Assembly: GCF_014779595.1 (NCBI RefSeq)
Contig: NZ_JACXZT010000009.1
Span: 3,378-67,377, forward strand
Length of the DNA: 64,000 nt
Origin: Halomonas sp. ML-15
GTDB taxonomy: Bacteria; Pseudomonadota; Gammaproteobacteria; Pseudomonadales; Halomonadaceae
Direction of reading: 5' to 3'
Part shown: in pieces, positions 4,243-26,610 of the stretch
Numbering within the stretch: position 1 is the stretch's first letter
How the letters are laid out: each line of letters starts with the position of its first letter
Translations under genes and position numbers: made by a program
The notes under the pieces: model-generated
The model's input: the letters and a program-made list of their open reading frames with translations, nothing else
What the model was told of the DNA's origin: nothing
Databases searched by the model: none

Positions 4243-4278
4243 TGGTGGTTGCACAGCTATAACGTGTAAGGACGCGCA

Positions 4279-5610: not shown

Positions 5611-5638
5611 GTAATAAGCTGGTAGATATAAGTGCGTC

Positions 5639-10929: not shown

Positions 10930-12038
10930 TGAGGTGCCAGTGGAAATCGATGAGGCTGCCGATCTCGGTGATGCTGATGATCCTGACGTTGATCGCGTGT
11001 GACTCAGCCAGGGATGTCGATGTGATTCAGGAGTACCGGGGAAACAGCCATCGTACCGGGCTGTTCGAGGGTAGTGGGCCAAGTGAAAAGCCCAGTCAGC
11101 TATGGCGCTTCCTCACATTGAGTGTGCTGACAGAAACTCCGGTGATCGGCGGTGACACCTTGTTCGTTGGAAGTACCGATCGCTCCGTCTATGCTCTCGA
11201 CGTAGACACTGGAAAGCGGCGTTGGCGTTACAGAACTCTGGGCAATGTTCGCGATGCGGTCGCTGTGGACGAGCAACGCGTTTATGCTGCTGGTGAGGAT
11301 AATACTTTCTACGCCATCGACCGCTATAGCGGCGAGCCACACTGGCAGTTTCCCCTGGACAAGACGCCCCACGGTGCTGCCGCGGTGCGCGAGGGCTTGG
11401 TCTACTTCGGCAGTTTCGATGATCGAGTGATTGCACTGGATACCGACACCGGTGAGCTAGTGTGGGAGTTTCAAGGCAGTCGATCGTTCGCCGCGGGCAT
11501 CACCGTGGTCGAGGACACCCTGTATGCCGCTAGCTTCGACGGACATCTCTACGCGTTTGATGCCGAAACTGGGGAGAAACGCTGGCGGGTTTCCGTGGGT
11601 CGAGGACATTGGCTGACCACCACGCCTGTCTACCGTGAGGGGCAGGTCTTCGTCGGTGGTTGGGCGCAGTACATGACGGCTGTCGGCGCCGAAACAGGAG
11701 AAATCAACTGGACCATCGACACCGAATCTCGGTTGGACCATCCTCCCAGCGTGGCACATGGCTTGGTCTACATCAGTGGAATGAACGCTCTGCAGGCCGT
11801 GGATGAGCAGACTGGGGAACTACGCTGGTCCTTCGATGAGCGCATATTCCGCTCCCCCGCGGTGACCGATAATCGCCTATACGCCGCTTGCGAGAACCAG
11901 GTCTGTACCCTGGATCCTATCAGTGGCGAACTGCTTTGGCGCTCCGATCCGTTGAGCGATACCGTCACTACAATCACCGTGCACGGAGATAGGCTTTTCG
12001 TGACCACCATTGATGGTTATATCTACGCCCTGCAGTGA
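10926..12038 (+). CDS. PQQ-like beta-propeller repeat lipoprotein (BamB-like fold)
   Basis: Lipobox LIAC. Repeats of (V)YAxxxDxxhYAhDxxTGExxWxF. Start overlaps the upstream stop (translational coupling). Confidence 0.75.
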   Translation: MMRCQWKSMRLPISVMLMILTLIACDSARDVDVIQEYRGNSHRTGLFEGSGPSEKPSQLWRFLTLSVLTETPVIGGDTLFVGSTDRSVYALDVDTGKRRWRYRTLGNVRDAVAVDEQRVYAAGEDNTFYAIDRYSGEPHWQFPLDKTPHGAAAVREGLVYFGSFDDRVIALDTDTGELVWEFQGSRSFAAGITVVEDTLYAASFDGHLYAFDAETGEKRWRVSVGRGHWLTTTPVYREGQVFVGGWAQYMTAVGAETGEINWTIDTESRLDHPPSVAHGLVYISGMNALQAVDEQTGELRWSFDERIFRSPAVTDNRLYAACENQVCTLDPISGELLWRSDPLSDTVTTITVHGDRLFVTTIDGYIYALQ

Positions 12039-13495: not shown

Positions 13496-14071
13496 ATGAT
13501 TGATCATGAGTTGTACAGGGGAAAATCTGTGAAATGTACCGCGTGCCAAGAAGGCAATCTGATCCCGAGCTTCCTGGATGACTTGTTTCGTTGTCATACG
13601 TGCGATAGTTGCGGCGGGAACTGGATCTTGATTGAAGACTATATTAGCTGGAAGGAACGGCATCCGGAGCATGTGTTCTCCGGTGAGAGCATCGATGCCG
13701 AGGATTCGCCGGGTGCCTTGATCTGTCCTATGAGCGGCGGGTTGATGCGAAAGTTCCGGATTGCCAAGGACAATGCCCATCGAGTGGATTATAGCGCCAG
13801 GGTCGGTGGAGTATGGCTACACAAGGGTGAATGGGAGATGCTGGTGGCCGAAGGCTTGGCGGGCAACCTTAATGCTATTCTGACGGACCAGTGGCAGCAC
13901 CGTATTCGCCAGGAGAAAGCCAGTGAGTCCCTCGAGAACTTGTATCGCAGTAAGTTCGGGGAAAGTGACTACCAGAGGGCTTGCGAAATCAGGGAGTGGC
14001 TGCATGATCATCCGCAGAAATCTGATATTCGAGCGTTTCTCATGGCCGATTCGCCGTTCTCGGTATCCTAG
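13496..14071 (+). CDS. Tandem TFIIB-type zinc-ribbon domain protein
   Basis: C..C…C..CGG.W and CPMSGG…GGVWL.KGE.E.L patterns characteristic of bacterial zf-TFIIB-like ribbons. Confidence 0.5.
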   Translation: MIDHELYRGKSVKCTACQEGNLIPSFLDDLFRCHTCDSCGGNWILIEDYISWKERHPEHVFSGESIDAEDSPGALICPMSGGLMRKFRIAKDNAHRVDYSARVGGVWLHKGEWEMLVAEGLAGNLNAILTDQWQHRIRQEKASESLENLYRSKFGESDYQRACEIREWLHDHPQKSDIRAFLMADSPFSVS

Positions 14072-14105: not shown

Positions 14106-14633
14106 TCACCAGGCGATGACCGCGATGAGCATGAGTATCCCGAAGGGAACTGCCACCCAAAGCATCAGAGCTAGCGGTATCAGCGTCGCACAGCGCCTTG
14201 CTCGTGGCCGTTTATCCCCCCAGCGAATGAAGCAAGCACATAGCGGACTGGCGATCAGAGAGGCCGTTACTATAAGATTGGTATCTTGGCCATCATGTAT
14301 TAAAGAGGCTGGAGGAAGCCCGTTTATAGGCCAAAAATCGAGACGCAGTATCATCAGGGCCAAGGCGGCTGCGAAGAGTCCCATGGCAATTTGCCAAGGG
14401 TAGCTGTGGCGTGCGAGATAATGCCGGAAAAGAGCATAGAATGCTCCCGTCATTACTGGGCCTAGGCCAGCAAAAAAATAGACCAAGGGGAAAAATGGAA
14501 TGGCAACAAGCAGTGGAGGAGCCAAAACGGAAATTGGCAAAATGAAGCACCATGGCCCTAATACCGCATAGACGAGAATAGACTCCCACGCCGGTGTAGG
14601 GGGAGTAAGGGAAGGCTCGGGTTCTGTTCGCAT
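14106..14633 (-). CDS. Multi-TM membrane protein, unknown; downstream of the PspA-like gene
   Basis: 4-5 hydrophobic helices. Confidence 0.45.
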   Translation of the reverse strand: MRTEPEPSLTPPTPAWESILVYAVLGPWCFILPISVLAPPLLVAIPFFPLVYFFAGLGPVMTGAFYALFRHYLARHSYPWQIAMGLFAAALALMILRLDFWPINGLPPASLIHDGQDTNLIVTASLIASPLCACFIRWGDKRPRARRCATLIPLALMLWVAVPFGILMLIAVIAW

Positions 14634-14756
14634 GAGGGCCGCGGCAGCCTGTATGGTGGGGTGTTGATGGGTCTATTTATCGCCGGACAGGCGTAGCGCC
14701 CTAACGGTGCCAGGGAAACATCTGGGGCCATCTACCCATGGCCCCAGACATCGGTG

Positions 14757-15461
14757 CTACGAGGCAGATTCGCTACGCGAAGCCTTCAAGCGAGCCATGA
14801 CACCTTCCACAGCGTCGCTTTCCTGATCGATGCCTGCTGCCTTCAGGCGCTCGTCGAGGTCGGCACCGGTCAGCTCCTTCTCCAGCTGCACGCTGGCATG
14901 TTGCTTATCCTCAAGACGTTGCTGGCGCTCGCGGATACGAGCGAGGGTGGTCTTGGCACTGGTCAGAGAGGACTGGTTGCTACCGATGTTGGTGTCGATC
15001 TGAGCGGTAGTGCGGAGTACCCGCTCGTTGGTCTTGACCACTTGGAGTTCGCGCTTGTATTCGGCCAGCTGTTTCTCCGACTTCTGCATGCGTTCACGCA
15101 TGCTGTCCACCTTGCCTTGCAGCTTGGTACGGGTGGCGGTTAGCTCGCTGCGTTGGCGCTCTGCTTCCACGATGCGTTCGGCGACTTCGCGAGCCAGGTC
15201 TTCCTTGCTGGCTGCCAGGGCCTTGCGGGCGTCATCTTCACGGCGGGCGATTTCATCTTCTGTATTCTTGATCTGGCGTGCAAGGGAGGTGTTCTCGGCC
15301 ATCAGGGCTGCAAGCTCCTGACGCGCCTGTTGAAGCTCGTTCTCGGCGTCACGTATTTCCTGTTCGAAGATGCGGTTCGCCTGGTTGTCCACGACCGACT
15401 CGCCCAGTTCGTTAACCCCTCCGCGCATGGCGGTAAGCATTTTCTTGAATACCGATTTCAT
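14757..15461 (-). CDS. PspA/IM30 (ESCRT-III-like) family protein, YjfJ-like
   Basis: N-terminal MKSVFKKMLTAMRGGVNELGE…NQANRIFEQEIRDAENELQQARQ. Coiled-coil throughout. Typical PspA/IM30 length. Confidence 0.85.
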   Translation of the reverse strand: MKSVFKKMLTAMRGGVNELGESVVDNQANRIFEQEIRDAENELQQARQELAALMAENTSLARQIKNTEDEIARREDDARKALAASKEDLAREVAERIVEAERQRSELTATRTKLQGKVDSMRERMQKSEKQLAEYKRELQVVKTNERVLRTTAQIDTNIGSNQSSLTSAKTTLARIRERQQRLEDKQHASVQLEKELTGADLDERLKAAGIDQESDAVEGVMARLKASRSESAS

Positions 15462-15476
15462 ACCGTAGCGCTCCTG

Positions 15477-15881
15477 TTACTTTAAGAAATCTTCAAATAT
15501 TTCAAGTAGATCAATGGCGTTGTCGGCAAGAGTGGTTAGCTCTTGGGCAATTTCTCGATAGGTTGCCGAAGTGGCCAAGGCCCCATGTACGACATAATGT
15601 TGCTCGATTTTGCCAAGAGCGCTGAGTGGCATGGGCACGCTGAGTCTCAGCATGTTGTCGAGAAGTGTCGGGAGACGCTCCGGGATGACTTCACCCTCAT
15701 CAAAAAGGTAAGTGAAGCATAGAATCTGTGCTTCGTCGGCGGTGAGGTAGACAGGCATCTCCTCTGCGCCCGAAACGGTAACCTGCAGCACGTCTTCTTT
15801 ACCTTCTATAGGCATGACGTGGAAGTGTCGACCTTCATGGGTCGTATCGCTGAGGTGTAATGTGAGGTCTTGCGTATCCAC
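15477..15881 (-). CDS. YjfI-like (DUF2170) cytoplasmic protein, partner of the PspA-family gene
   Basis: Size and position immediately upstream of the PspA-like gene mirror the E. coli yjfI-yjfJ arrangement. Sequence recalled as DUF2170-like with moderate certainty. Confidence 0.55.
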   Translation of the reverse strand: MDTQDLTLHLSDTTHEGRHFHVMPIEGKEDVLQVTVSGAEEMPVYLTADEAQILCFTYLFDEGEVIPERLPTLLDNMLRLSVPMPLSALGKIEQHYVVHGALATSATYREIAQELTTLADNAIDLLEIFEDFLK

Positions 15882-15909
15882 TGCGCTCTCCCTTTCTCGT
15901 GGAATCTGG

Positions 15910-15938
15910 TTGACAGCGTTTCTACAACTAATTAAGTT
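15910..15938 (+). promoter_or_regulatory. Candidate sigma70 promoter for the nfeD-flotillin operon in the divergent intergenic region
   Basis: TTGACA, 17 nt spacer, TAAGTT. Confidence 0.3.
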
Positions 15939-16047
15939 TATCCGGATGAAGAGGGGGTTGGCAACGCATTGGCTACTGAATGTCGTTGCAAGGGGAGGCT
16001 TTGCCAGGGATTCCTGAGGCAGCCATAGTTAAAGCCTGTCTCAAGGG

Positions 16048-16683
16048 ATGATGAGGCAAATGTCGATATTTCTATCTATTATCATATCTTTTCCTACCGT
16101 CGTTTTTACTGTTCTGCTCTGTGTTGCCGTTATCTATTGGCTCGTATCCCTATCGGGAATGGTCGATGGTGATGTACTGGATGGTGATGTTGGAGGCGAT
16201 GGGGCAGTAGACTTCGGTGGTTTGCTCGCCACGCTTGGGCTCCAAGGTGTGCCGTTACCCCTGATGGTGACGCTCCTGTCTTTAACGGGCTGGCTGTTGA
16301 GCTACTTCGCTGACCTGTGGCTGGGCGTTAGTACTGCATCTGGCTGGCTAAGTTGGTTGCTGGGCATCGTTCTCCTGCTTGCATCGCTGGTGGGCGCACT
16401 CTTTGCTACGGCCATTCTCATCCGCCCGCTACGGCCCCTGTTCGTGCGGGCATACCACAAGCCGCAAGAAAAGCAGCTCATTGGCACACTCTGCACGATT
16501 CGTTCGGGCTCGGTTGGTCTGGGCAGTGGAAGTGCCGATGTCCACGTCGATGGCTCGCACTTGATTCTACAGGTAAGAAGCGACTCGGCCTTGGCACGCG
16601 GGGACCAAGCCGTACTGATCGAATACTTGTTGGAAGAGCAGGCCTACTGGGTCGTACCTGAAAAAGAATTCCATACCGGCTAG
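16048..16683 (+). CDS. NfeD-like membrane protein (YqiJ family) with C-terminal OB-fold
   Basis: TM helix, acidic DGDVLDGDVGGDG stretch, further TMs, C-terminal beta-rich segment. Gene directly precedes the flotillin gene. Confidence 0.75.
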   Translation: MMRQMSIFLSIIISFPTVVFTVLLCVAVIYWLVSLSGMVDGDVLDGDVGGDGAVDFGGLLATLGLQGVPLPLMVTLLSLTGWLLSYFADLWLGVSTASGWLSWLLGIVLLLASLVGALFATAILIRPLRPLFVRAYHKPQEKQLIGTLCTIRSGSVGLGSGSADVHVDGSHLILQVRSDSALARGDQAVLIEYLLEEQAYWVVPEKEFHTG

Positions 16684-16706
16684 GCCGGTGTAAACACGCA
16701 GGCAAC

Positions 16707-18662
16707 ATGGAGACTAAAGCAATGGATTTGTCGTGGATCATGCCACTGATTGTGGCAATTGGTGTTATCACCATTACTGTTTTTGCCTTGCTGGCGTTAT
16801 TTCAGGCTTTTTATCGAAAAATCGATCAGGGCCAGGCGCTGATCGTCAATGATCTCTCAATGACACCGAAGGTGTACTTTACCGGTGCCATGGTGTTGCC
16901 GGTCATTCATCGCTCCGAGATCATGAAGATATCGGTCATTACTCTGGAGATGAATCGCACCGGTAAAGAAGGCTTGATCTGCCGCGACAACCTGCGTGCC
17001 GATATCAGCGTGGCCTTCTATCTCAGGGTCAATGCCACGGCAGACGATGTGCTGCGCGTTGCCAAGTCGGTTGGTGTGGGGCGCGCCTCCGACCGTGATG
17101 CGGTAAATGAGCTGTTCAATGCCAAGTTCAGCGAGGCGTTGAAGACCGTCGGCAAGAAGATGGACTTCATGCAGCTCTTCGATGAGCGCCAGCAGTTCCG
17201 TGATGCCATCGTCGAGACCATCGGTCAGGACTTGAATGGCTACATCCTCGAAGACGTGGCGATCGATTATCTCGAGCAGACGCCCAAGAGCTCTTTGGAC
17301 TCCAATAACATTCTGGATTCAGAGGGCATCAAGCGCATCACCGAAATCACGGCCCAGCACAACGTCGAGACCAATCGCCTGGAGCGTGACCAGGAGCTGG
17401 AAATCCAGCGCAAGAACGTGTCTGCCCGTGAAGCGGGGCTGGAGCTGGAGCGTACCCAGGCCGATGCCGAAGCCCGCCAGCGTCGGGAGATCGATAGCCT
17501 GCAGGCGCGCGAGAGCTCGGAAACCGAGCAGATTCGTCAGCAGGAGCGTGCCAAGAGCGAGGCGGCACGCATCAAGACTGACGAAGAGCTGGCGATTGCC
17601 GATGAGAACAAGCAGCGCCAGATCGAGATGGCGGCCAAGGCGCGTGAGCGTGCCGTGCAGATCGAAGAAGTGCGCATTCAACAGGCGCGCGAACTCGAGG
17701 ATGTGAACCGCGAGCGCGCCGTGGAAATCGAGCGCATCGGCATGGAGAAAGCGCTGGAGGGAGAGCGCAAGGAAATCGCCGACATCACCAGCCAGCGTAT
17801 TGCCGTTGAGCGCAGCGTGGCGGAAGAAGAAGAGAATATCAGCGATGTCCGTAACCGTGCCGAAGCCGAACGCCACAAGGTGACTCGTCTGACGGCTGCC
17901 CAGGCGGAAGCGGAAGAGCGCAAGCTGAAAGAGGTGAAGTCGGCCGAGGCGGCTTTCGAGCGCTCCAAGCTCGAAGCCGAGGAAACGGTGATTCGCTCCC
18001 AGGCCGAGCTGGATGCCGCAGAGAAGAAGGCGGCCGCGGAAGAGAAACAGGCGCGTGGGAACCAGGCACTCGCCGCCGCCGATGGCCTGGCGGAGGCGCA
18101 AGTGCTGGAAGCCCGTGCACATGCGCAGCGCAGCGAAGGCTTGGCGCAGGCCGAGGTCAAGACGGCGAATGCCAAGGCCGAGGAAGATACCGGCATGGCC
18201 GAGGTGCGTGTGCTCGAGCAGCGTCTCGAGGCAGAGGCGATGGGCGAAGAGAAGCTGGGCGCTGCCAAGGCGCAAGCCCGCGAAGCCATGGCGTGCGCCG
18301 AGGCGAACGGCCTCGTCGAGAAGCTCAGGGCCTACGACAACATGTCCGAGGAGGCTCGCCACTTCGAAGAGTTCCGTATGAACCTCGAGGTGCACGAGAA
18401 GGAAGTCATGGCTCAGATCGAAGCGCAGCGCATCGGCATGCTGGAGAACGGCAAGGTGATGGCGGCAGCGCTGCAGAATGCCAAGTTCGAGCTGATCGGT
18501 GGCGATGGCGATATCTTCGAGAAGTTCGCAACGGGGCTCGGTTATGGCAAGACCGTACAAGGGGTTCTCGACAAGTCACCGGCACTCCAGGCGGCCCTGA
18601 TGGGGATCGCAAACCGGGCAGTGGGCAGCCAACCAGCGGCCAAGTCTACCGAAACCGCTTAA
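16707..18662 (+). CDS. Flotillin / SPFH (band 7) family protein, YqiK-like, with long Ala/Glu-rich coiled-coil tail
   Basis: N-terminal TM. GAMVLPVIH motif matching YqiK. SPFH core. ~350 aa EA-rich coiled coil. Confidence 0.9.
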   Translation: METKAMDLSWIMPLIVAIGVITITVFALLALFQAFYRKIDQGQALIVNDLSMTPKVYFTGAMVLPVIHRSEIMKISVITLEMNRTGKEGLICRDNLRADISVAFYLRVNATADDVLRVAKSVGVGRASDRDAVNELFNAKFSEALKTVGKKMDFMQLFDERQQFRDAIVETIGQDLNGYILEDVAIDYLEQTPKSSLDSNNILDSEGIKRITEITAQHNVETNRLERDQELEIQRKNVSAREAGLELERTQADAEARQRREIDSLQARESSETEQIRQQERAKSEAARIKTDEELAIADENKQRQIEMAAKARERAVQIEEVRIQQARELEDVNRERAVEIERIGMEKALEGERKEIADITSQRIAVERSVAEEEENISDVRNRAEAERHKVTRLTAAQAEAEERKLKEVKSAEAAFERSKLEAEETVIRSQAELDAAEKKAAAEEKQARGNQALAAADGLAEAQVLEARAHAQRSEGLAQAEVKTANAKAEEDTGMAEVRVLEQRLEAEAMGEEKLGAAKAQAREAMACAEANGLVEKLRAYDNMSEEARHFEEFRMNLEVHEKEVMAQIEAQRIGMLENGKVMAAALQNAKFELIGGDGDIFEKFATGLGYGKTVQGVLDKSPALQAALMGIANRAVGSQPAAKSTETA

Positions 18663-18788
18663 GGCATGGGCGACACCGCGTAGGTGCGTGTCGCCGGGGC
18701 CAGCCTTGCCTGTGTCCCGACCTTTCGCTTCAGGGCCGCCATGTATTGCACATGCTGCGGCCCTTGCCATTGCCAGCCTACTTCCAGG

Positions 18789-21700
18789 ATGAAGACTATG
18801 TCGAAGGGACCAACTCAGGTCGAGAGCATCGTCAGGGAAAGCACTGCATTCGAGACCATTCAGCGGCGCTTGCGATCCCAGGGTGAAAACCTGCACGCCT
18901 CAGTCGATAAGCTGAACGAGGAGCGTGCCGGGGTTTTCGGTAGCAGCAGCATGGCCCTGCTGGGGCGTGCCCGGGTACGTACCGAGAACAATACCGTGGC
19001 ACGCGATATGGTGCGCATCGGTGACAGGATTCTGTTCGGTTTCAATGTGCAGCTGGGTCTGCGCAAGGCGCTCGAAGTCGGCGATATCTTCTCGCTTTAC
19101 TATCTGGAGGATACCGCCGATGGCTTCGAACTTCAGGAGGCTCCGCTAGAGGGTAGCTTCCTGACGGATGAGCGCTTCGTACAAGACTTCCGGGAGCTGC
19201 AGCAGTACTACAGCAATGCCGTGCTGGTGCAGCTGGCTGTGATGAACGGGATGCTGCTGGCGGCTTTCCAGATTGGCGAGAAACTGACCGACGTACGCGT
19301 GTTTCGCTGGGAGCTGTCGGCGGACGGCAGCGTCAGACGTTACATCGACAACCGGGGCGAGCGCGACCTTGTCCTGCCGGAGCGCTTTGCGTTTCCCTGG
19401 AAAGAGGCGGGTCGTGACCATCAGGAGCAGGGGCGCGCGCCGCACCTGAACATTCTCGACACGGTCTTCATCGACAACCTGCGCGGCAACATTACCTTCA
19501 AGATCGAGAACAACACCGGCAGCGGCGAAGGCATCTATGCCGACCCGGTGGAGTCGGACTCCCAGTCGCTGGACGATGCAGCCTTCGAATATGCCGACCT
19601 GGGCGCGATACTGCTGGTCAGGATCCTGCCCTTCAACGAAAGCCAGTGGCGCTATTATCTGTACAACCGCTCCGAGCAGGTGGTGCAGCGGATAGACGAG
19701 ATGGCCGGCTCGGTCGTCGCGCTGCCCGAAAACCACGGGATCATCTTTCCGTCGGGCTACTACCTCAACAGCGGTGAGCTCAGGACCTACGAGGTGCCCG
19801 ATGAGGACCTGCGCTTCAAGCGCATGGTGCGCTCGCCGAACGGCGAAGACGTTCTCTACATCTTCTATGCGCCCCACACGGGCCATGTGGTGCTCTATCG
19901 CTACAACCTGATCCGCAAGCAGACCGACACGCCGATGGTCGGTCATGGCTTCGCGTTGCTGGAGAATGGCCATCTGGCGATTTTCCACTCCGAGGACGAG
20001 CCGACCCTGGTGCACCCGATCCAGGTGTGGGACACGCCGTTCATGTCGGAGAACTTCCATGCCCAGGATGCCGTTCGCAACGACACCCCGCTGGGTCGAA
20101 TCGGTAACCCCGAGCTGGTGCGCGGGATTGCCGAGCTGAACAGCATCGTTCAACTGGCGGGGGAGCAGCAGGCTTCCGAGCGACATTACAATGCCATCAT
20201 CCGGCGGGTGGACCGCGCGCTCAATCAGTTCCACTGGCTGGGCGAGGCCACCTTCGAGGCGGTGCACGATCTGCTGGTGCAGCTCAAGCATACCGCTGAA
20301 CTGATGCTCGACGAGTATGAGAAGGTCCAGGCGATCCGGGGGCAGACGGCAGAGGCCCTGGATAGCATCGGTGGGCAGCAGGACACGCTGCTACGGGAAC
20401 TCAAGCCGAGCAGCTGGAAAACGCCGGATCAATTCGTATCGCATCTCAAGGCGCTGCGCGATCACCGCGGCCGCCTGCTGGCGCTGCGGGATCGTCGCTA
20501 TCTCGATGAGGAGCGTCTGCAGGAGCTGGAGCAGGCGTTGGACAAGGCCGAACGGACCCTGACCGGCCAGACCTTCGACTTTCTTGCGACGCCCGAAGCG
20601 CTGGACGGCTATCGGGCGACCCTGGCTGCATTGGCAGAGCGCGTGAAGGAGGCCGAAACGCGGGATCAACTGGGCAAATGCGTCGGCGAGTATCGCGAGC
20701 TGACCGCCGGCCTGGACATGATACAGGCCATGCTGTCGTCCATGTCCGGCGACGATGCCACCCAGCAGACCCGTATTACCGAGAACATCTCGAGCATTTA
20801 CGCCACCATCAACCAGCAGCGCTCCGAGGCGGAGATCCGCATGCGCGAGCAGGGCAGTGCCGAAGCACAGGCCCAGTTCGCCGCTCAGATCCGGCTGTTC
20901 GAGCAGAGCCTGGCCAATGGCGTGGGGGCCCTGCGTGAGCCCGACGACTGCGACCAGTTGATGACACGGATGCTGGATCAACTGCAGGAGCTGGAGGGGC
21001 AGTTCGGCGAGTTCGACGAATTCCTGAGCATGATCCTGGAGCAGCGCGAGAGTGCCCACGAGAGTATCGAGGCGCGCCGCCAGCAGCTGCAGGACGAGCG
21101 CCAGCGCCGCGTCAACACCCTCACCGATGCCACCAAGCGCATTCTGCAGAACGTGGAGCGGCGCACCGAGCGCTTCGAGACCCTCGAGGAGCTGCACAGC
21201 TTTTTTGCCTCGGATGCGATGGTGGCCAAGGTGCGCAGCATGGCAGACGAGCTGCGTGAGATGGGCGCCAACCTCGAAGCCGATGACCTGGCCGGGCGCT
21301 TGCGCTCGACCCAGGACGCCGCCCTGCGCAGTGTCCGTGATCGGGCCGATATCTATGAATCCGGTGGCAATGTCATCCGCCTGGGGCCGCGCCATCGTTT
21401 CAGTGTCAATCAGCAGCATCTGGACCTGACGCTGGTGCCGCGGGATGACAGTATCATGCTGCATCTCACCGGTACGCAGTTCTATGCGCCGCTGAAGGAT
21501 GAGCGCCTGGAGGCGCTACGCCCCTACTGGTCGATCACCCTGCCATCCGAGACCGACGAGGTCTATCGGGCCGAGTACCTGGCTTACCTGATCATGGAGG
21601 CGCTGGCGCGTCCCGGAGCCGAGCGGATCAACGTGGAGGACCAGGCGGAACTGGAGCGCTACATCAGCCGCTTTGCCTCGCCGCGCTACCGCGAAGGCTA

Positions 21701-23735
21701 CGAAAAGGGCATTCATGACCACGATGCCGCCCGAATCGTGCGGACTCTTTGGCCGGCACGCCAGAGCGCCGGACTGCTCGGCTATGGCCCCTTGCCGCGG
21801 GCCATCGCGATGCTCTACTGGGCGCAATGCCGCCAGGACGAAAGCGCGTCCCGCAACCTGCGCGCGCGCTGCCTGTCGGCCGGCATGCTGTGCCGCATCA
21901 TGGGCAATGAAGACCTGCTGCTGGCGCTGATCGAAGAGGTCGCTCCACTGCTGGATGCCTTCGTCAGCCAGTGTCGGCTTGATGGGTCGGCAAGCCAGCG
22001 CAGGAGTGCCGCGGAATACCTCGTGCGTCAGCTTGCCGAGGAGGGTGAGAGCTTCCCCGTTACCCAATACGCCGCCGAGCTGGTCGACAGCTTTACTGCC
22101 GCGATGAAGCAGCAGGGGCATTACCGCCATTTCGAGGAGTCGTTGGCAGTGGTGGCAGGCCAGCCTGGGCCACGCTGGACGATCACGTCGCACTGGCTGC
22201 AGGCTCACGCGGAAAACGCGGGCAAGGAGGCGCTGCTGCACTACCTCCCCGAAGCGATCGCCCTGTTGAATACGGCGGATCGTCTGGCCACGGCAACTCA
22301 CAACGTCGAGCTCTCGTTTCGTGTCGAAGGGTTGCTCGGCCAGCACCCGAGGCTGTCGCAGCAGTCCCTGGCACTGCAGCTGGACGACTTCCACGAGCGC
22401 CTGCGCCATCACCAGCAGGAAGTGATACGCGGCTGGTCGGAACTTCAGGAGCGTCGCCAGACCATTCTACGCGAGCAGCGTGAGCGGCTTCGTCTCGAGG
22501 AGTTCATGCCCAAGCCGTTGAACTCCTTCGTGCGCAACAAGCTGATCACCGAAAGCTATCTGCCGATCATCGGCGACAACCTGGCCAAGCAGATGGGCAC
22601 CGTTGGCGATGCGCGTCGAACCGACAACAGCGGCCTGCTGATGATGATCTCGCCGCCGGGCTACGGCAAGACCACCCTGATGGAGTACGTCGCCAATCGC
22701 CTGGGGTTGATCTTCATGAAGATCAACTGCCCGAGCCTCGGCCACGATGTCACCTCGCTGGACCCGGAAATGGCCGCCCACTCCACCGCAAGGGCCGAGC
22801 TGGTAAAGCTCAACCTCGCTCTGGAGATGGGCAACAACGTGATGCTGTATCTGGACGATATCCAGCACACCCACCCGGAGTTCCTGCAGAAGTTCATCTC
22901 CCTGTGTGACGGCAGCCGGCGCATCGACGGTGTATGGGAGGGGCGAAACAAGACCTACGACATGCGTGGCAAGCGGTTCTGCATTGCCATGGCGGGCAAC
23001 CCCTATACCGAGAGCGGGGAGGCCTTCAAGGTGCCGGACATGCTGGCCAACCGGGCCGACGTGTATAACCTCGGCGATGTGCTGAGCGGGATGGAAGGCG
23101 TTTTTGCCCTCTCCTATATCGAGAATGCCATCAGCGCCAATACCGTGCTGGCGCCGTTGGCCACCCGTGGGTTGGACGACTTCTACCGCTTCGCCGATCT
23201 GGCGGCGGGCCGTGAGGTACCGAGCACCGACTTCGAGCACGACTACAGCGCAGCCGAGCGGGAGGAGATCGTGGCGGTGTTGAAGCACATGTTCAAGGTG
23301 CGTGAGGTGGTGTTGAGCGTCAATCAGCAGTACATCGCCTCGAGTGCCCAGGCAGATGCCTACCGGACCGAGCCGAGCTTCCGCCTGCAGGGCAGTTACC
23401 GCAATATGAGCCGCCTCGCCGAGAAGATATCGCCGATCCTGTCCGACGAAGAGCTCGAAGCGATTCTCGATGACCACTACCTCGGTGAAGCTCAGCTACT
23501 GACCCAGGGGGCGGAAGAGAACCTGCTCAAGCTCAAGGAGCTTCGCGGCACCTTGAGCGCCGAGGAGGCGCAGCGCTGGGAGTCCATCAAGCGTGAGTTC
23601 CGTCGCCGTCAACTGACCGGTGGCGACGAGGAAACCGGTGCCCTGGTGGTGCGTCAGCTTAGTCTCATCGCCGAAGGCGTGGGTAACCTCGGCGCCTCGA
23701 TGCCGACCGGGGAGAGTTACCGCGAGCCGAGTTGA
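18789..23735 (+). CDS. Giant (~1645 aa) protein. N-terminal ~500 aa is an unknown beta-rich region, the middle ~700 aa is alpha-helical/coiled-coil, and the C-terminus is a MoxR/McrB-clade AAA+ ATPase
   Basis: Walker A ISPPGYGKTT. Walker B VMLYLDDIQ. Sensor-1-like CIAMAGNPYTE…DMLANRAD, the hhhhA(T/A)xNP pattern of helix-2-insert AAA+. Start at 18789 or 18798 (AGGA RBS). Confidence 0.8.
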   Translation: MKTMSKGPTQVESIVRESTAFETIQRRLRSQGENLHASVDKLNEERAGVFGSSSMALLGRARVRTENNTVARDMVRIGDRILFGFNVQLGLRKALEVGDIFSLYYLEDTADGFELQEAPLEGSFLTDERFVQDFRELQQYYSNAVLVQLAVMNGMLLAAFQIGEKLTDVRVFRWELSADGSVRRYIDNRGERDLVLPERFAFPWKEAGRDHQEQGRAPHLNILDTVFIDNLRGNITFKIENNTGSGEGIYADPVESDSQSLDDAAFEYADLGAILLVRILPFNESQWRYYLYNRSEQVVQRIDEMAGSVVALPENHGIIFPSGYYLNSGELRTYEVPDEDLRFKRMVRSPNGEDVLYIFYAPHTGHVVLYRYNLIRKQTDTPMVGHGFALLENGHLAIFHSEDEPTLVHPIQVWDTPFMSENFHAQDAVRNDTPLGRIGNPELVRGIAELNSIVQLAGEQQASERHYNAIIRRVDRALNQFHWLGEATFEAVHDLLVQLKHTAELMLDEYEKVQAIRGQTAEALDSIGGQQDTLLRELKPSSWKTPDQFVSHLKALRDHRGRLLALRDRRYLDEERLQELEQALDKAERTLTGQTFDFLATPEALDGYRATLAALAERVKEAETRDQLGKCVGEYRELTAGLDMIQAMLSSMSGDDATQQTRITENISSIYATINQQRSEAEIRMREQGSAEAQAQFAAQIRLFEQSLANGVGALREPDDCDQLMTRMLDQLQELEGQFGEFDEFLSMILEQRESAHESIEARRQQLQDERQRRVNTLTDATKRILQNVERRTERFETLEELHSFFASDAMVAKVRSMADELREMGANLEADDLAGRLRSTQDAALRSVRDRADIYESGGNVIRLGPRHRFSVNQQHLDLTLVPRDDSIMLHLTGTQFYAPLKDERLEALRPYWSITLPSETDEVYRAEYLAYLIMEALARPGAERINVEDQAELERYISRFASPRYREGYEKGIHDHDAARIVRTLWPARQSAGLLGYGPLPRAIAMLYWAQCRQDESASRNLRARCLSAGMLCRIMGNEDLLLALIEEVAPLLDAFVSQCRLDGSASQRRSAAEYLVRQLAEEGESFPVTQYAAELVDSFTAAMKQQGHYRHFEESLAVVAGQPGPRWTITSHWLQAHAENAGKEALLHYLPEAIALLNTADRLATATHNVELSFRVEGLLGQHPRLSQQSLALQLDDFHERLRHHQQEVIRGWSELQERRQTILREQRERLRLEEFMPKPLNSFVRNKLITESYLPIIGDNLAKQMGTVGDARRTDNSGLLMMISPPGYGKTTLMEYVANRLGLIFMKINCPSLGHDVTSLDPEMAAHSTARAELVKLNLALEMGNNVMLYLDDIQHTHPEFLQKFISLCDGSRRIDGVWEGRNKTYDMRGKRFCIAMAGNPYTESGEAFKVPDMLANRADVYNLGDVLSGMEGVFALSYIENAISANTVLAPLATRGLDDFYRFADLAAGREVPSTDFEHDYSAAEREEIVAVLKHMFKVREVVLSVNQQYIASSAQADAYRTEPSFRLQGSYRNMSRLAEKISPILSDEELEAILDDHYLGEAQLLTQGAEENLLKLKELRGTLSAEEAQRWESIKREFRRRQLTGGDEETGALVVRQLSLIAEGVGNLGASMPTGESYREPS

Positions 23736-23839: not shown

Positions 23840-24580
23840 GTGATGATGTTTGGAAAACTTGTTTTTGGGCCGTTCTTTTTGCTGTTTTCATCAAGCAAGA
23901 GTTTGTTTAAGAGTGTGTCGGTTCCGGCTGTCATCTACTTTCTTGTGAATATGGAAATGCAAGGTGTTCTAGATTTTTTCTGGGCGTCTGGGTGGCTGAT
24001 CGGAGGAGTTGCATATATTGTCTTGGAGTGCGTTCTTCTATTGCTGATGACGTTGCTTGGTGTCAATGCAACGCGTGTGGTTCTGCTAGGTGGGAGCTTG
24101 TCAGCGGTTGGCGTGAGATGGACTAAGAGGGAAAGTGCCTATTTTCTCTATACTCTTTTGTTCATGCTTCCTTTGTATCTTATGACACTGCCTGAGATCT
24201 TTTTGAACAAGGCTCCTCTTGAGGTGAGGTTTGCCTATAGCCTGTTGTATCTAGTTTTGATGATAGGGTGGGTTTGGGTTTTTTCCAGGCTGTTGTTGGT
24301 CTTTCCAAGTATTGCGGTCGATGGCCGCATGAGTCTCAAAGACTCATGGCGGCTAACGAGAAAGTATCAGTGGGTGTTTTTGCTCTCGATTCTGTGTGTA
24401 GGTGGAATGTTTGTTGTTATGGGGGGTATGTTGCAGCTTATTCCCTTTGGCCATATTGCTGTTCATGCATTTCATACTCTGTTGGCGTTGGTCGTCTCAT
24501 TGATGCTGGCGGCTTATTATGCCGAGGTCGTGGTAAAGGAAATTCGGCCGGAGCATGATCGTTTCGCGACGGAGGAGTAG
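23840..24580 (+). CDS. Multi-TM membrane protein, unknown (low-GC islet)
   Basis: 6+ hydrophobic helices. AT-rich codon usage. Confidence 0.55.
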   Translation: MMMFGKLVFGPFFLLFSSSKSLFKSVSVPAVIYFLVNMEMQGVLDFFWASGWLIGGVAYIVLECVLLLLMTLLGVNATRVVLLGGSLSAVGVRWTKRESAYFLYTLLFMLPLYLMTLPEIFLNKAPLEVRFAYSLLYLVLMIGWVWVFSRLLLVFPSIAVDGRMSLKDSWRLTRKYQWVFLLSILCVGGMFVVMGGMLQLIPFGHIAVHAFHTLLALVVSLMLAAYYAEVVVKEIRPEHDRFATEE

Positions 24581-24683
24581 ATGCCTGATAGCTCGTGATT
24601 TAACCTTCTCTGAGCTAAGAATCATAGTGCCTATGAGGTCATTGGATTTTTTGGTGAAATAAATTCAAGCAATTCCGGGGTGT

Positions 24684-25925
24684 TTGTTGGATATCAGAGT
24701 AATAGTCTTGCTTGTCTTGTTTTTTAATTTATTCTTGTTGTCTTCCGTGCTGAAGCGCTTTTTTGATGCGAGAAGAGTCAGGGAAAGCATGCTAGATGGC
24801 AGTTCATGCCGGCCGTTGACTGAAAAAGAAAAGACAATTGCGACTCTAGGGCTGACCTTTGCTGACCACAGTTATCAGGGGGGCGGTGCATATAGAATCA
24901 CAGGGCCTTTGAGTGAATATAAGATTAGGCATAGAGGGATCGTTACTGAGGTCAGGTATAAGGCTGGCGGTGTGGAAATTATTCCTGCATTTGATGCGTT
25001 AGATTTTATTAAGGAAAATAGCGTAATTGATTTGGTCGATGTGGGTAAGGGAAAGATGGGGGTGATCAAAGTCGATGATGTGTTTGATTTAGAGGAGGCC
25101 GTGGAAAGGAAAGAGCTTCAGTTTCCAGTGAGATTTCTAGAAGGCACGCTAGGGGTGTTGTATGGATCGTCAGGCGATAGAAAGGCAGAAAGTATAGAAG
25201 TTATCAGTGTGGCCGATTGTGAAGATAAGGGCGTTTATGACGACCGAGTCGATTCCGAAAAATTTTACTTCTCGTCACTTCATTTACTAGCAGTGTTTGG
25301 ATTTCTGCTGCTGACTGTCCTGGGGTTACAAATAAGCATTTTGTCTCTTTTGTTCTTGATTCCGGTTCCTTTCTTTCTGTTTTTTTCCTTTTCTTTTTTC
25401 AGCATGGGTTTTTGTAAGGGTGAAGGAGAAGGTTATAGGATATTTAAAGTTAAGGCTGTTATGCATCGTGGTGGCTTAGGGTATGTCGTTGATTTAGGTC
25501 CCTTGGAAATGGTTACGGTCCCTCTTCCTTGGCGCGAATTTTTAGTAAGTGATGCTCACCCAAAGGAGTACGAAATAGTAGTCTCGCCATATGGTGGGGC
25601 TAGCTTACATAGTGCGCAAGGTCTATCAGTCGAGACAATGCCTGAGCCAAGCAAAAATTGGATCCCCTTTGCGGGTCCGGCTTGTGTCTCAGCATTAGCG
25701 CTGATCGCTGGGTTTTTTATGCTTAACCCATCCGACTTTTTTGTTATGCTTTCTGCTGGTGAGCTTTTTCAGCCGCGAAGCATGGCTGTTGCTTTTTTCT
25801 TCTTTATCGCGGGGGTGGTTTTTTTAATTAGTGCGCCTCTCTATTTTTATCGTTATTACAGATATCGTGCTGAGTTTGACGAGTGTGTTGCTACGGTACG
25901 CTCTGCTAAGGAAAAAAGCGGGTAA
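24684..25925 (+). CDS. Membrane protein with large soluble domain between TM1 and later TMs, unknown
   Basis: N-terminal TM, ~200 aa hydrophilic domain, then 4-5 TMs. Confidence 0.55.
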   Translation: MLDIRVIVLLVLFFNLFLLSSVLKRFFDARRVRESMLDGSSCRPLTEKEKTIATLGLTFADHSYQGGGAYRITGPLSEYKIRHRGIVTEVRYKAGGVEIIPAFDALDFIKENSVIDLVDVGKGKMGVIKVDDVFDLEEAVERKELQFPVRFLEGTLGVLYGSSGDRKAESIEVISVADCEDKGVYDDRVDSEKFYFSSLHLLAVFGFLLLTVLGLQISILSLLFLIPVPFFLFFSFSFFSMGFCKGEGEGYRIFKVKAVMHRGGLGYVVDLGPLEMVTVPLPWREFLVSDAHPKEYEIVVSPYGGASLHSAQGLSVETMPEPSKNWIPFAGPACVSALALIAGFFMLNPSDFFVMLSAGELFQPRSMAVAFFFFIAGVVFLISAPLYFYRYYRYRAEFDECVATVRSAKEKSG

Positions 25926-26070
25926 CTTTTTATCAAAAAAATGGGCAAGTGTTAATGGAGTGATAGCAATGGGACATGGCAATACGATACTATCTGGGGC
26001 AGGTGTTGCGCTTAGTCACAGAGGCTGCCGTGAGTAAAGCAACTTAATTTAAGAAAAACGAGGTTATGTA

Positions 26071-26478: not shown

Positions 26479-26610
26479 GTATATTTACATTACGTCAAAC
26501 TGAACATGCGAAACATCCGTGAACTGGTTACGCCCTCAAGCGGTATGGCCGCTGAAACAATGCTTTATAAAAAGAATCCATAAAATAAAGAGCCTCCAGC
26601 CTCTTTTTCA

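What the first reader, a model, noticed from the sequence alone, without database searches (positions are those of the whole stretch)
14106..23735. Membrane-remodelling supercluster: PspA/IM30-YjfI pair divergent from NfeD(YqiJ)-flotillin(YqiK)-giant AAA+ operon
Within ~9.6 kb the window encodes an ESCRT-III-like PspA/IM30 protein (14757-15461) with its YjfI-like partner. Divergently transcribed from a shared 166-bp control region are an NfeD-family protein, an SPFH/flotillin with a ~350-aa coiled-coil tail, and a ~1645-aa protein ending in a MoxR/McrB-clade AAA+ module. PspA, SPFH/NfeD and AAA+ are each membrane-microdomain or membrane-repair machinery. Their tight physical linkage, with the flotillin-giant genes separated by only ~126 bp containing an 8-bp-stem hairpin without a U-tract, suggests one functional system. 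Candidate roles are a membrane-damage surveillance/repair module or a membrane-associated phage-defence system. The block's GC is core-like, but it is embedded between two low-GC segments. I am not aware of a characterised system with this exact composition.
Basis: partly seen in the sequence, partly recalled or inferred. Interest (0 to 1): 0.85.

Follow-up and report, generated by a model that had tools for sequence, protein, structure and literature searches.

The report
PspA-flotillin-giant AAA+ membrane-stress cluster
This stretch of a Halomonas genome carries a real, widely conserved set of membrane-stress genes (a PspA protein with its chaperone, a flotillin with its small membrane partner, and a giant ATPase), but the same set was already described by comparative genomics and is studied in Pseudomonas aeruginosa as the 'bac' operon, so it is a new example, not a new system.

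Summary
The genes are there as described. The window matches Halomonas sp. ML-15. The cluster holds a DUF2170 (YjfI/BacA-like) and PspA pair on the minus strand, divergent from a YqiJ-like protein, a YqiK-like flotillin and a 1645-aa DUF3686+DUF7902+AAA+ protein.

In 80 species-level genomes that carry a homologue of the giant gene, a flotillin gene lies directly upstream in 77 and a YqiJ-like gene in 74. PspA is present in 57 and DUF2170 in 56. In 44 loci all five genes run in one direction.

The composition is not new. Ravi et al. (mSystems 2024) described this same operon class. In P. aeruginosa it is the bacABCDEF operon (PA3732-PA3727). That operon is co-transcribed, derepressed in a bacA mutant, and induced by osmotic shock and by phage infection.

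The Halomonas locus is a rearranged member: the PspA pair is inverted and the PLD gene (bacF) is absent.

Three details add to the published picture:
- A hairpin without a U-tract sits just after the flotillin stop codon in most loci.
- A Zn-ribbon protein recurs beside the cluster in 25 of 80 loci.
- The AAA+ module falls in the MoxR / Clp-D2 structural neighbourhood, not the Vps4 one.

The mechanism is still unknown.

The parts
13496..14071 (+). Zn-ribbon protein (191 aa, two CxxC pairs). Probable accessory component.
   Evidence: Pfam Zn_ribbon_TFIIB, E 5e-9. Homologues lie beside the cluster in 25 of 80 loci that carry a homologue of the giant gene. Their position and orientation vary: after the giant gene or the PLD gene, between flotillin and giant, or after PspA.
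14106..14633 (-). 175-aa polytopic membrane ORF downstream of pspA. It is lineage-specific and its membership in the system is doubtful.
   Evidence: No family hit. No homologue in any of the 80 related loci. It is called as a gene in the public record.
14757..15461 (-). PspA/IM30 (ESCRT-III-like) protein, BacB-like.
   Evidence: Pfam PF04012, E 7e-40. 36% identity (E 1e-38) to the P. paraeruginosa BacB homologue, against 28% to E. coli YjfJ.
15477..15881 (-). DUF2170 / YjfI-family protein (CesT/Tir-like chaperone), BacA-like.
   Evidence: Pfam PF09938, E 1e-30. NCBIfam BacA model scores 48.8 bits, below its 300-bit cut-off. The L060 protein passes that model at 340 bits.
15882..16059 (.). Divergent intergenic control region.
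   Evidence: Back-to-back sigma-70-like hexamer pairs at 16001-16029(+) and 15964-15935(-), each matching 9 of 12 positions. There is only a weak sigma-54-like match (8 of 11) at 15959, and it is not conserved in related loci.
16060..16683 (+). YqiJ-like (short NfeD-type) membrane protein, BacC-like.
   Evidence: hhalign of family profile A2 against E. coli YqiJ: 87.5%, E 3.6e-6. Relatives are named DUF1449, YqiJ or OB-fold protein by their sources. Present upstream of the flotillin gene in 74 of 80 loci. No Pfam NfeD hit.
16722..18662 (+). YqiK-type flotillin: N-terminal TM helix, SPFH domain, then a helix of about 340 residues. BacD/PaFlo3-like.
   Evidence: BLASTP against E. coli YqiK, E 7e-39. 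hhalign 99.7%. The only PDB profile hit is Flotillin-1 at E 0.11. The AF2 model has one helix from 200 to 539. Present upstream of the giant gene in 77 of 80 loci.
18668..18694 (+). Intercistronic hairpin (8-bp stem, no U-tract) six bases after the flotillin stop codon.
   Evidence: Sequence. A stem of at least 8 bp occurs within 60 nt of the flotillin stop in 74% of 77 loci, against 18% for a coding-region control. Only 4 of 77 have a T-rich tail.
18798..23735 (+). Giant 1645-aa protein: DUF3686, DUF7902, a helical middle region and a C-terminal AAA+ module. BacE-like. Publicly annotated as 'DNA repair ATPase'.

Best explanation
This locus is the Halomonas version of the PspA-associated 'CesT-like/PspA + YqiJ + flotillin + beta-propeller-AAA+' envelope-stress system. 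In P. aeruginosa that system is the bacABCDEF operon.

Shown here or in the literature:
- The five gene families travel together across Gammaproteobacteria and beyond.
- In Pseudomonas they are one transcript.
- They are derepressed when bacA is lost.
- They are induced by hyperosmotic shock and by phage infection.

Inferred working model:
1. The DUF2170 dimer acts as a chaperone or negative regulator that holds the PspA-like protein in check.
2. On inner-membrane stress the PspA-like protein is released and polymerises on the damaged bilayer, as ESCRT-III-type proteins do.
3. The YqiJ-like protein and the flotillin form a membrane-anchored SPFH cage or microdomain that marks the site. The model for this is the QmcA-YbbJ and HflK/C cages.
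4. The giant protein docks there through its N-terminal DUF3686 and helical regions.
5. Its C-terminal AAA+ ring then uses ATP to assemble, remodel or recycle the PspA and/or flotillin polymers. This would be a functional counterpart of Vps4 with a different AAA+ ancestry.
6. The hairpin after the flotillin gene probably lowers read-through or protects the upstream mRNA. The scaffold would then be made in excess over the ATPase.

In Halomonas the PspA pair has been inverted into a divergent unit. That arrangement would allow the two halves to be regulated separately.
For: Identity of the system:
- Pfam and NCBIfam assignments.
- Homology to E. coli YqiK and YqiJ.
- In the P. paraeruginosa locus L060 the first gene passes NCBI's BacA equivalog cut-off (340 bits against 300). 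It is followed by genes for PspA, a 213-aa protein, a 688-aa protein, a 1746-aa protein and a PLD.

Linkage:
- At least 540 species genomes encode a relative of the giant protein.
- In the 80 fetched loci the counts are flotillin 77, YqiJ-like 74, PspA 57 and DUF2170 56.
- 44 loci are co-directional and 12 are divergent like the window.

Literature:
- Ravi et al. describe the same composition (PMC11237479).
- RT-PCR shows an operon, and BacB-F rise 6- to 13-fold in a bacA mutant. There is a CesT-like crystal structure of BacA (PMC10948618).
- PA3731 is induced by osmotic shock, and its deletion gives biofilm, swarming and virulence defects (PMC2587700).
- PA3728-PA3732 are up-regulated on phage infection (PMC12041424).
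- No Vps4-like ATPase is known for bacterial PspA (PMC7619361).

ATPase competence: Walker A, sensor-1 Asn and arginine residues are invariant. The AAA+ fold is modelled with a core pLDDT of 76-94.

Hairpin: it is conserved in position but not in sequence.
Against: - There are no functional data for Halomonas.
- The mechanistic steps (who binds whom, what the ATPase acts on) are inference only.
- A paFlo3 (bacD) deletion in PA14 lost only about 20% of biofilm. It showed no phenotype for growth, motility, oxidative stress or virulence (PMC13086221).
- 17 complete loci carry YqiJ-flotillin-giant with no PspA within 10 kb. The ATPase therefore cannot depend strictly on a neighbouring PspA.
- Walker B reads DD rather than DE, and no canonical aromatic pore loop was seen in the sequence. 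Substrate threading in the Vps4 or Clp manner is therefore uncertain.
- The SPFH domain could not be modelled with confidence (pLDDT 24-50).
- The sigma-54 promoter proposed in Pseudomonas is not recognisable here or in most loci.
Confidence: 0.6

Rival explanations
1. It is a membrane-associated anti-phage (conflict) system. The flotillin/PspA part senses infection-induced membrane damage. The giant NTPase, together with the PLD-family enzyme where present, executes an abortive or protective response.
For: - PA3728-PA3732 are among only 17 genes up-regulated in all phage-infected P. aeruginosa samples (PMC12041424).
- 27 of 80 loci carry a PLD-family gene right after the giant gene.
- The nearest NCBIfam models for that PLD are the NucT nuclease, DISARM DrmC and DpdK, all below their cut-offs.
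- The locus sits between low-GC segments.
- The giant protein has a weak PADLOC IetA match, E 0.002.
Against: - No PADLOC model matches any of the ten proteins at a meaningful score.
- The window lacks the PLD gene.
- The cluster is a stable chromosomal locus across whole genera, with conserved gene order, rather than a patchy island gene.
- It is also induced by osmotic shock and in biofilms (PMC2587700).
- Classical Psp is itself induced by phage without being a defence system.
Confidence: 0.12
2. There are two independent modules that merely lie next to each other here: a yjfIJ-type PspA pair and a separate yqiJK-giant ATPase operon. They have unrelated regulation and functions.
For: - They are divergently transcribed in the window.
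- E. coli has yjfIJ and yqiJK at unlinked sites and has no giant gene.
- 17 complete loci have no PspA within 10 kb.
- Ravi et al. note that 'abbreviated' operons without PspA are more widespread.
- The PspA and DUF2170 proteins are much more diverged (about 30-37% identity to the Pseudomonas versions) than flotillin and giant (about 50-55%).
Against: - PspA lies next to the flotillin-giant genes in 57 of 80 loci. In 44 of them it is in a single co-directional array.
- Co-transcription and co-derepression are shown in PA14.
- The window's PspA is closer to BacB than to YjfJ.
Confidence: 0.1
3. The giant protein is a DNA-repair ATPase, as the Pfam DUF3686 description and the NCBI product name say. 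Its position next to membrane genes would then be incidental.
For: Pfam describes PF12458 as 'ATPase involved in DNA repair'. NCBI names the protein 'DNA repair ATPase'. RuvB is among the Foldseek hits.
Against: - No paper in the searched library mentions DUF3686.
- No DNA-binding or nuclease domain was detected.
- Linkage to YqiJ-flotillin is near-obligate.
- The RuvB similarity is a generic AAA+ fold match, equalled by NorQ, CbbQ and Clp.
Confidence: 0.03

Closest known systems
P. aeruginosa bacABCDEF operon (PA3732-PA3727 / PA14_16140-16200; Mace 2008, Wallart 2024)
   Same: The same five protein families: DUF2170 (BacA), PspA-like (BacB), YqiJ-like (BacC), flotillin (BacD/PaFlo3) and the DUF3686-AAA+ giant (BacE). 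The order C-D-E is the same, and there is a comparable spacer after the flotillin gene (149 nt in L060).
   Different: - In Halomonas the BacA/BacB pair is inverted and divergently transcribed.
- There is no PLD gene (bacF).
- The DUF2170 protein scores 48.8 bits against the 300-bit cut-off of NCBI's BacA equivalog model.
- Identities are PspA 36%, flotillin about 54% and giant about 50%.
- A Zn-ribbon gene lies next to the cluster.
- No sigma-54 site is recognisable.
[quoted passage not shown]
   Same: The composition matches exactly, including the optional PLD and the existence of abbreviated versions without PspA.
   Different: Nothing substantive differs. That paper gives neither counts nor orientation variants, and it does not mention the post-flotillin hairpin. 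I did not see the Zn-ribbon partner mentioned for this operon class in the passages I read.
E. coli yqiJ-yqiK and yjfI-yjfJ
   Same: The window proteins are homologous to YqiK (E 7e-39), YqiJ (hhalign E 3.6e-6), YjfJ (E 4e-19) and YjfI (E 4e-13).
   Different: In E. coli the two pairs lie more than 1 Mb apart. No giant AAA+ gene follows yqiK. yjfIJ is joined to yjfKLMC, which includes polyamine-related genes.
B. subtilis pspA-ydjGHI
   Same: PspA is encoded together with an SPFH/flotillin-family protein that links it to the membrane, and with a Zn-ribbon protein (YdjG).
   Different: It has no AAA+ ATPase, no DUF2170 and no YqiJ-like protein. The partner YdjH is a TPM-domain protein. The SPFH protein belongs to a different subfamily.
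ESCRT-III / Vps4 (archaea and eukaryotes), and the HflK/C-FtsH cage
   Same: The logic is the same. In one case a polymerising ESCRT-III-fold protein is paired with an AAA+ remodeller. In the other an SPFH cage is associated with an AAA+ machine.
   Different: - It has no MIT domain, no protease domain and no TM anchor.
- The resemblance is an analogy, not membership.

Membership tests
bac / PspA-flotillin-AAA+ operon class (Ravi 2024; Wallart 2024) | DUF2170 (CesT/Tir-like) and PspA dyad | tested here: met
   Pfam PF09938, E 1e-30, and PF04012, E 7e-40. The genes are adjacent on the minus strand and 16 bp apart.
bac / PspA-flotillin-AAA+ operon class (Ravi 2024; Wallart 2024) | [quoted passage not shown] | tested here: met
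   Homology to YqiK (E 7e-39; hhalign 99.7%) and to YqiJ (hhalign 87.5%, E 3.6e-6).
bac / PspA-flotillin-AAA+ operon class (Ravi 2024; Wallart 2024) | Large AAA+ ATPase with a non-ATPase N-terminal region (beta-propeller/coiled coil) directly downstream of the flotillin gene | tested here: met
   DUF3686 (E 6e-174), DUF7902 and AAA. About 50% identical to the L060 (bacE-position) protein. The beta-propeller fold itself was not modelled here.
bac / PspA-flotillin-AAA+ operon class (Ravi 2024; Wallart 2024) | All genes in one co-directional operon | tested here: not met
   The PspA pair is on the opposite strand and divergent. The same variant occurs in 12 of 80 loci (Marinobacter, Hahella), against 44 co-directional loci.
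bac / PspA-flotillin-AAA+ operon class (Ravi 2024; Wallart 2024) | PLD/HKD hydrolase (BacF) after the ATPase gene (optional feature) | tested here: not met
   tblastn with the L060 PLD finds it in 27 of 80 loci but not in the window.
bac / PspA-flotillin-AAA+ operon class (Ravi 2024; Wallart 2024) | Sigma-54 promoter; induction by osmotic or phage stress; repression through BacA | tested here: inconclusive
   Only one GG-N10-GC match (8 of 11 positions) at 15959, not conserved in related loci. Expression cannot be tested with these tools.
SPFH / flotillin | SPFH (band-7) domain recognisable by sequence or fold | tested here: met
   - The Pfam Band_7 and Flot models miss the window protein. They hit only 1 and 3 of 29 relatives.
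- Homology to the flotillin-family protein YqiK is clear.
- The only PDB profile hit is Flotillin-1 across the whole SPFH domain, at E 0.11.
- The AF2 model of this domain is unreliable.
NfeD | C-terminal NfeD OB-fold domain (Pfam PF01957) after TM helices, encoded upstream of an SPFH gene | tested here: inconclusive
   - No PF01957 hit. YqiJ_N matches only 2 of 19 relatives, at E 0.12.
- No PDB hit.
- The hhalign match to YqiJ spans the TM region and the C-terminal domain.
- The position upstream of the SPFH gene is conserved in 74 of 80 loci.
- The OB fold itself was not modelled.
   - The model shows a beta-hairpin (model residues 226-239) between the Walker B strand and the sensor-1 strand.
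- Foldseek top hits are NorQ and CbbQ at E 1e-6, with RuvB next at 3e-6.
- A helix-2 insert is not resolved.
- No VWA partner appears among the cluster's Pfam hits.
Classical Psp system (PspF-ABC) | PspB/PspC membrane sensors and the PspF enhancer-binding protein next to pspA | tested here: not met
   No such Pfam or NCBIfam hits among the ORFs from 9 to 29 kb.
Known anti-phage defence systems (PADLOC-DB v2) | Significant match of the component proteins to a defence-system model | tested here: not met
   Only coiled-coil noise (LmuB and JetC matches on PspA) and a 15.8-bit IetA match on the giant protein.

The most novel reading that the evidence does not exclude
The DUF3686-AAA+ giant (BacE type) is the missing ATP-driven remodeller of bacterial ESCRT-III-like PspA polymers. 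It would work from a YqiJ-flotillin platform as a functional analogue of Vps4 that arose from a MoxR/Clp-like AAA+ lineage. The Zn-ribbon protein would be a further, so far unlisted, component. The post-flotillin hairpin would set the ratio of scaffold to motor.
Probability: 0.25. Interest if true: 0.75.

Novelty: new member of a known kind. Interest (0 to 1): 0.35.

Why it matters
Bacterial PspA/Vipp1 proteins are now recognised as ESCRT-III relatives. No bacterial ATPase is known to play the role that Vps4 plays in archaea and eukaryotes (PMC7619361). This conserved cluster couples a PspA, a flotillin cage and a 1600-2000-aa AAA+ protein in hundreds of species, including P. aeruginosa. There the genes affect biofilm and virulence and respond to phage and osmotic stress.

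The locus is therefore a good place to test how bacteria power membrane repair. The credit for recognising the system belongs to earlier work. This window adds one rearranged example and a few comparative details: how often the genes are syntenic, the hairpin, the Zn-ribbon partner and the structural neighbourhood of the AAA+ module. It also shows that the product name 'DNA repair ATPase' has no supporting evidence.

Tried and rejected
- Pfam at E<=10, and PDB sequence and profile searches, for the 207-aa and 646-aa proteins gave nothing usable. I therefore fetched E. coli yqiJK and compared directly.
- The AlphaFold model of the flotillin, built on 29 sequences, was too poor in the SPFH domain (pLDDT 24-50). 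I did not run a fold search on it.
- A sigma-54 promoter scan found one weak site in the window. It found no consistent site upstream of the operons in 80 loci. I do not carry over the RpoN claim from Pseudomonas.
- PADLOC gave no defence-system match.
- Rfam (gathering threshold) and tRNA scans of the whole window found nothing. The spacer hairpin is not a known RNA family, and no tRNA-linked island boundary is visible.
- The consensus terminator scan found no canonical terminator after the flotillin gene or the giant gene.
- A literature search for DUF3686 returned no papers. A search for later work on bacE returned only Wallart 2024.
- I considered whether the window's PspA pair was a separately recruited yjfIJ pair. 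It is closer to BacB (36%) than to YjfJ (28%), so I rejected independent recruitment as the simplest reading.

Full report
**1. What is in the sequence**

- 14106-14633(-), 175 aa.
- 14757-15461(-), 234 aa.
- 15477-15881(-), 134 aa.
- 16060-16683(+), 207 aa.
- 16722-18662(+), 646 aa.
- 18798-23735(+), 1645 aa.

The giant protein is 100% identical to a Halomonas sp. ML-15 protein annotated 'DNA repair ATPase'. That identifies the source organism.

Pfam assigns PspA_IM30 (E 7e-40) to the 234-aa protein and DUF2170 (E 1e-30) to the 134-aa protein. For the giant protein (numbered on the 1683-aa GTG ORF) it gives DUF3686 at residues 70-517 (E 6e-174), DUF7902 at 638-722, and AAA/AAA_5 at 1315-1442.

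The 8-bp hairpin GGCGACAC...GTGTCGCC sits at 18668-18694, six bases after the flotillin stop codon. No T-run follows it.

GC content is 0.53-0.56 over the PspA/YqiJ part and 0.60-0.65 over flotillin and giant. The flanks are lower: 0.48-0.49 at 12-14 kb and 0.43-0.52 at 24-30 kb.

**2. Testing the 'NfeD' and 'flotillin' labels**

Neither protein hits any Pfam model, even at E<=10. Neither hits any PDB chain, by sequence or by family profile. The labels therefore needed an independent test.

Database relatives of the 646-aa protein are named 'flotillin family protein' or YqiK by NCBI and UniRef. Relatives of the 207-aa protein are named DUF1449, YqiJ or OB-fold protein.

I fetched E. coli K-12 yqiJ-yqiK and compared directly.
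- The window protein against YqiK gives BLASTP E 7e-39, with 27% identity over 508 residues that include the SPFH domain.
- The N-terminal family profile against YqiK gives hhalign probability 99.7%, E 2e-25.
- The profile of the small protein against YqiJ gives 87.5%, E 3.6e-6, over 138 columns.
- The N-terminal profile's only PDB match is human Flotillin-1, aligned across the whole SPFH domain, at E 0.11.
- Pfam Band_7 and Flot recognise only 1 and 3 of 29 family members. This is a divergent YqiK-type subfamily.

The AlphaFold model was unreliable in the SPFH domain (pLDDT 24-50).

The flotillin label is confirmed. The YqiJ-like label is moderately supported. Membership in Pfam NfeD proper is unproven.

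**3.

A scan of one genome per species found at least 540 genomes that encode a relative of the giant protein. I fetched 80 loci with 10-kb flanks. They cover Halomonas/Vreelandella, Marinobacter, Hahella, Cellvibrionaceae, many Pseudomonas, Xenorhabdus, Pragia, Lysobacter, Psychromonas, a betaproteobacterium and a zetaproteobacterial MAG.

Iterative HMM searches of all six-frame ORFs (tblastn) gave these counts.

| Gene | Loci of 80 | Note |
|---|---|---|
| Flotillin, directly upstream of giant | 77 | 77 of 78 with enough upstream DNA |
| YqiJ-like, upstream of flotillin | 74 | 74 of 75 assessable |
| PspA | 57 | |
| DUF2170 | 56 | |

The only clear exception for flotillin and the YqiJ-like gene is a Methyloprofundus MAG.

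In 44 loci the order is DUF2170 > PspA > YqiJ-like > flotillin > giant, all on one strand. In 12 loci (Marinobacter, Hahella) the PspA pair is inverted, as in the window. In 17 complete loci no PspA lies within 10 kb.

The genes form one conserved unit.

The DUF3686 family comprises about 700 clusters at 50% identity. Nearly all full-length members are 1600-2000 aa with DUF3686 at the N-terminus.

**4. The system is already known**

Ravi et al. (mSystems 2024, PMC11237479; first posted as a bioRxiv preprint, DOI 10.1101/2020.09.24.301986) describe the CesT/Tir(DUF2170)-PspA dyad 'within larger operons'. Those operons combine it with three further proteins:
[quoted passage not shown] They add that some Proteobacteria also carry a PLD hydrolase. 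They also note that abbreviated operons without PspA are more widespread.

In P. aeruginosa the same genes are the 'biofilm-associated cluster'.
- Mace 2008 (PMC2587700) defined PA3729-PA3732. A PA3731 (PspA-like) deletion impaired biofilm, swarming, rhamnolipid production and lung virulence. The protein accumulated after osmotic shock.
- Wallart 2024 (PMC10948618) showed by RT-PCR that bacA to bacF (PA14_16140-16200) form one operon. BacB-F rise 6- to 13-fold in a bacA mutant. BacA has a CesT-like crystal structure.
- A 2026 study classifies PA14_16180 as the SPFH protein PaFlo3 and PA14_16160 as a short NfeD. The deletion gave only about a 20% loss of biofilm (PMC13086221).
- PA3728-PA3732 are among 17 genes induced in all phage-infected samples (PMC12041424).
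- PA3728 ('ATPase') is listed among genes recurrently mutated in cystic-fibrosis isolates (PMC8190622).

I checked that my Pseudomonas locus is this operon. In L060 (P. paraeruginosa) the first gene passes NCBI's BacA equivalog cut-off, at 340 bits against 300. It is followed by genes for PspA, a 213-aa protein, a 688-aa protein, a 1746-aa giant and a PLDc_2 protein, and then by recJ.

The equation bacE = giant rests on gene position and on the 'ATPase' annotation of PA3728. I did not check a locus tag directly.

**5. How the Halomonas locus differs**

- The PspA pair is divergent rather than co-directional.
- The PLD gene (bacF) is absent. It is present in 27 of 80 loci.
- The DUF2170 protein scores only 48.8 bits on the BacA equivalog model.
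- PspA is 36% identical to the L060 BacB homologue and 28% to E. coli YjfJ. Flotillin and giant are about 50-55% identical to their Pseudomonas counterparts.
- The divergent spacer has two back-to-back sigma-70-like hexamer pairs in sensible positions.
- It has only a weak sigma-54-like match (8 of 11 positions), which is not conserved. A scan of 80 upstream regions shows no consistent sigma-54 site. I do not carry over the RpoN claim.

**6. Details added here**

(a) The hairpin. In the first 60 nt after the flotillin stop codon, 74% of 77 loci have an uninterrupted stem of at least 8 bp. The median z-score against shuffled sequence is -2.6. For a control window inside the flotillin coding region the figures are 18% and -0.75.

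The hairpin sequences are unrelated to one another, and only 4 of 77 have a T-rich tail. The median flotillin-to-giant gap is 126 nt. The window's own 60-nt segment is less extreme (z = -1.6).

PA14 shows read-through across this junction. The most economical reading is therefore an intercistronic attenuator or mRNA-stabilising stem that sets a high ratio of flotillin to ATPase. This is inference.

(b) A Zn-ribbon protein. Homologues lie beside the cluster in 25 of 80 loci, at different positions:
- directly after the giant gene or the PLD gene, on the same strand;
- between flotillin and giant;
- convergent, downstream of the giant gene;
- after PspA.

Linkage that survives rearrangement suggests a functional partner. 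It recalls the Zn-ribbon protein YdjG of the B. subtilis pspA-ydjGHI operon.

(c) The AAA+ module. A model of residues 1150-1645 has mean pLDDT 70, with 76-94 in the core. It shows a beta-hairpin between the Walker B strand and the sensor-1 strand.
- Foldseek ranks the MoxR-family proteins NorQ and CbbQ first (E 1e-6). RuvB, MCM, ClpB/Skd3 and Lon follow.

The module therefore belongs to the pre-sensor-1-hairpin part of the AAA+ superfamily. It could be MoxR-like or Clp-D2-like; the data do not decide. It is not of the classical Vps4/katanin type.

Walker A (GPPGYGKT), a sensor-1 Asn and candidate arginine residues are invariant. Walker B reads LYLDD.

**7. How it most likely works**

Shown: the linkage here and, in Pseudomonas, co-transcription, co-regulation and stress induction.

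Inferred:
1. The DUF2170 dimer restrains the PspA-like protein and feeds back on expression.
2. Membrane stress releases PspA, which polymerises on the inner membrane.
3. YqiJ-like protein plus flotillin build an SPFH cage or microdomain. This is by analogy with the QmcA-YbbJ and HflK/C structures cited in PMC13086221.
4. The giant ATPase is recruited through its N-terminal domains. It uses ATP to assemble, remodel or recycle these polymers.

I put about 0.9 on the identity of the system and about 0.4 on this mechanism.

Against the mechanism:
- The paFlo3 deletion phenotype is mild.
- PspA-less operons exist.
- Walker B is unusual.
- No canonical pore loop is visible in the sequence.

**8. 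Rival explanations**

- Anti-phage system. It is supported by phage-induced expression. It is also supported by a PLD whose nearest models are NucT, DrmC and DpdK, all below their cut-offs. There is no PADLOC match, the window has no PLD, and gene order is stable across genera. Confidence about 0.12.
- Two unrelated neighbouring modules. E. coli keeps yjfIJ and yqiJK apart. But 57 of 80 loci link them and PA14 co-transcribes them. Confidence about 0.1.
- DNA-repair ATPase. The name alone supports it. No paper in the library mentions DUF3686. Confidence about 0.03.

**9. Verdict**

The 'one functional system' interpretation is correct. The novelty claim is not: this is a rearranged member of a known, partly characterised system whose mechanism is still open.

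Interest is moderate (0.35). The biology is attractive because the giant ATPase is a candidate power source for bacterial ESCRT-III-like repair. However, the window itself reveals nothing that a specialist who knows Ravi et al. 2024 and the bac literature would find surprising.

Noticed in passing
window 13496-14071 (+); loci L001-L003, L007, L009-L011, L013-L015, L018, L021, L023, L025, L026, L029, L031, L033, L038, L041, L045, L062, L076, L080: A Zn-ribbon protein (Pfam Zn_ribbon_TFIIB) recurs beside the PspA-flotillin-giant cluster in 25 of 80 loci. Its position and orientation vary, which suggests an accessory component. In Marinobacter it is a longer protein of about 370 aa, downstream of pspA.
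   Followed up: partly
L060 15219-15926 and 26 other loci; absent from the window: A PLDc_2 gene (BacF) directly follows the giant gene in 27 of 80 loci, and in L060 it overlaps the giant gene's end. Its nearest NCBIfam models are the NucT nuclease, DISARM DrmC and DpdK, all below their cut-offs. It may be nuclease-like rather than a phospholipase.
   Followed up: partly
L036, L037, L048, L059, L061, L062: the gap between the flotillin and giant genes: Several Pseudomonas loci, and one Cellvibrionaceae locus, have a 414-534-nt spacer (905 nt in L062). It holds a conserved ORF of about 80 aa (MSEPRDYLEM(S/T)FRSIQCF..DGRLD..EL..LL.IAERDGVID.NE.RVL). This ORF has no NCBIfam hit and has no counterpart in the window.
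   Followed up: partly
L067 and L072: between the flotillin and giant genes: Insertions of 2.0 kb and 3.4 kb separate the flotillin gene from the giant gene. L067 has two copies of a roughly 310-aa ORF. L072 has several unrelated ORFs. The junction after the hairpin appears to tolerate insertions.
   Followed up: no
window 642-9028 (+): Five consecutive same-strand ORFs (241, 244, 396, 443 and 782 aa) have no Pfam hit. They are followed by a MORN-repeat protein (9046-10929) and a BamB-like PQQ_2 beta-propeller protein (10926-12038). The first 3 kb has GC of only 0.46-0.48.
   Followed up: no
window 23840-30000: This low-GC segment (0.43-0.52) downstream of the giant gene holds hydrophobic ORFs without family hits (23840-24580, 24684-25925, 26071-26478). 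It also holds a convergent M48-peptidase/DUF898 pair (26611-28919). GC jumps to 0.69 at about 30 kb. No tRNA or Rfam feature marks a boundary.
   Followed up: partly
window about 22854-22860 (giant protein residues 1353-1354 in the 1645-aa numbering): The Walker B motif of the giant ATPase reads LYLDD (Asp-Asp, not Asp-Glu). It is invariant across homologues of 50-100% identity. Its effect on hydrolysis is unknown.
   Followed up: no
window 14106-14633 (-): This 175-aa polytopic membrane ORF lies between pspA and the Zn-ribbon gene. It has no homologue in any of the 80 related loci. It is probably a lineage-specific insertion and not part of the system.
   Followed up: partly
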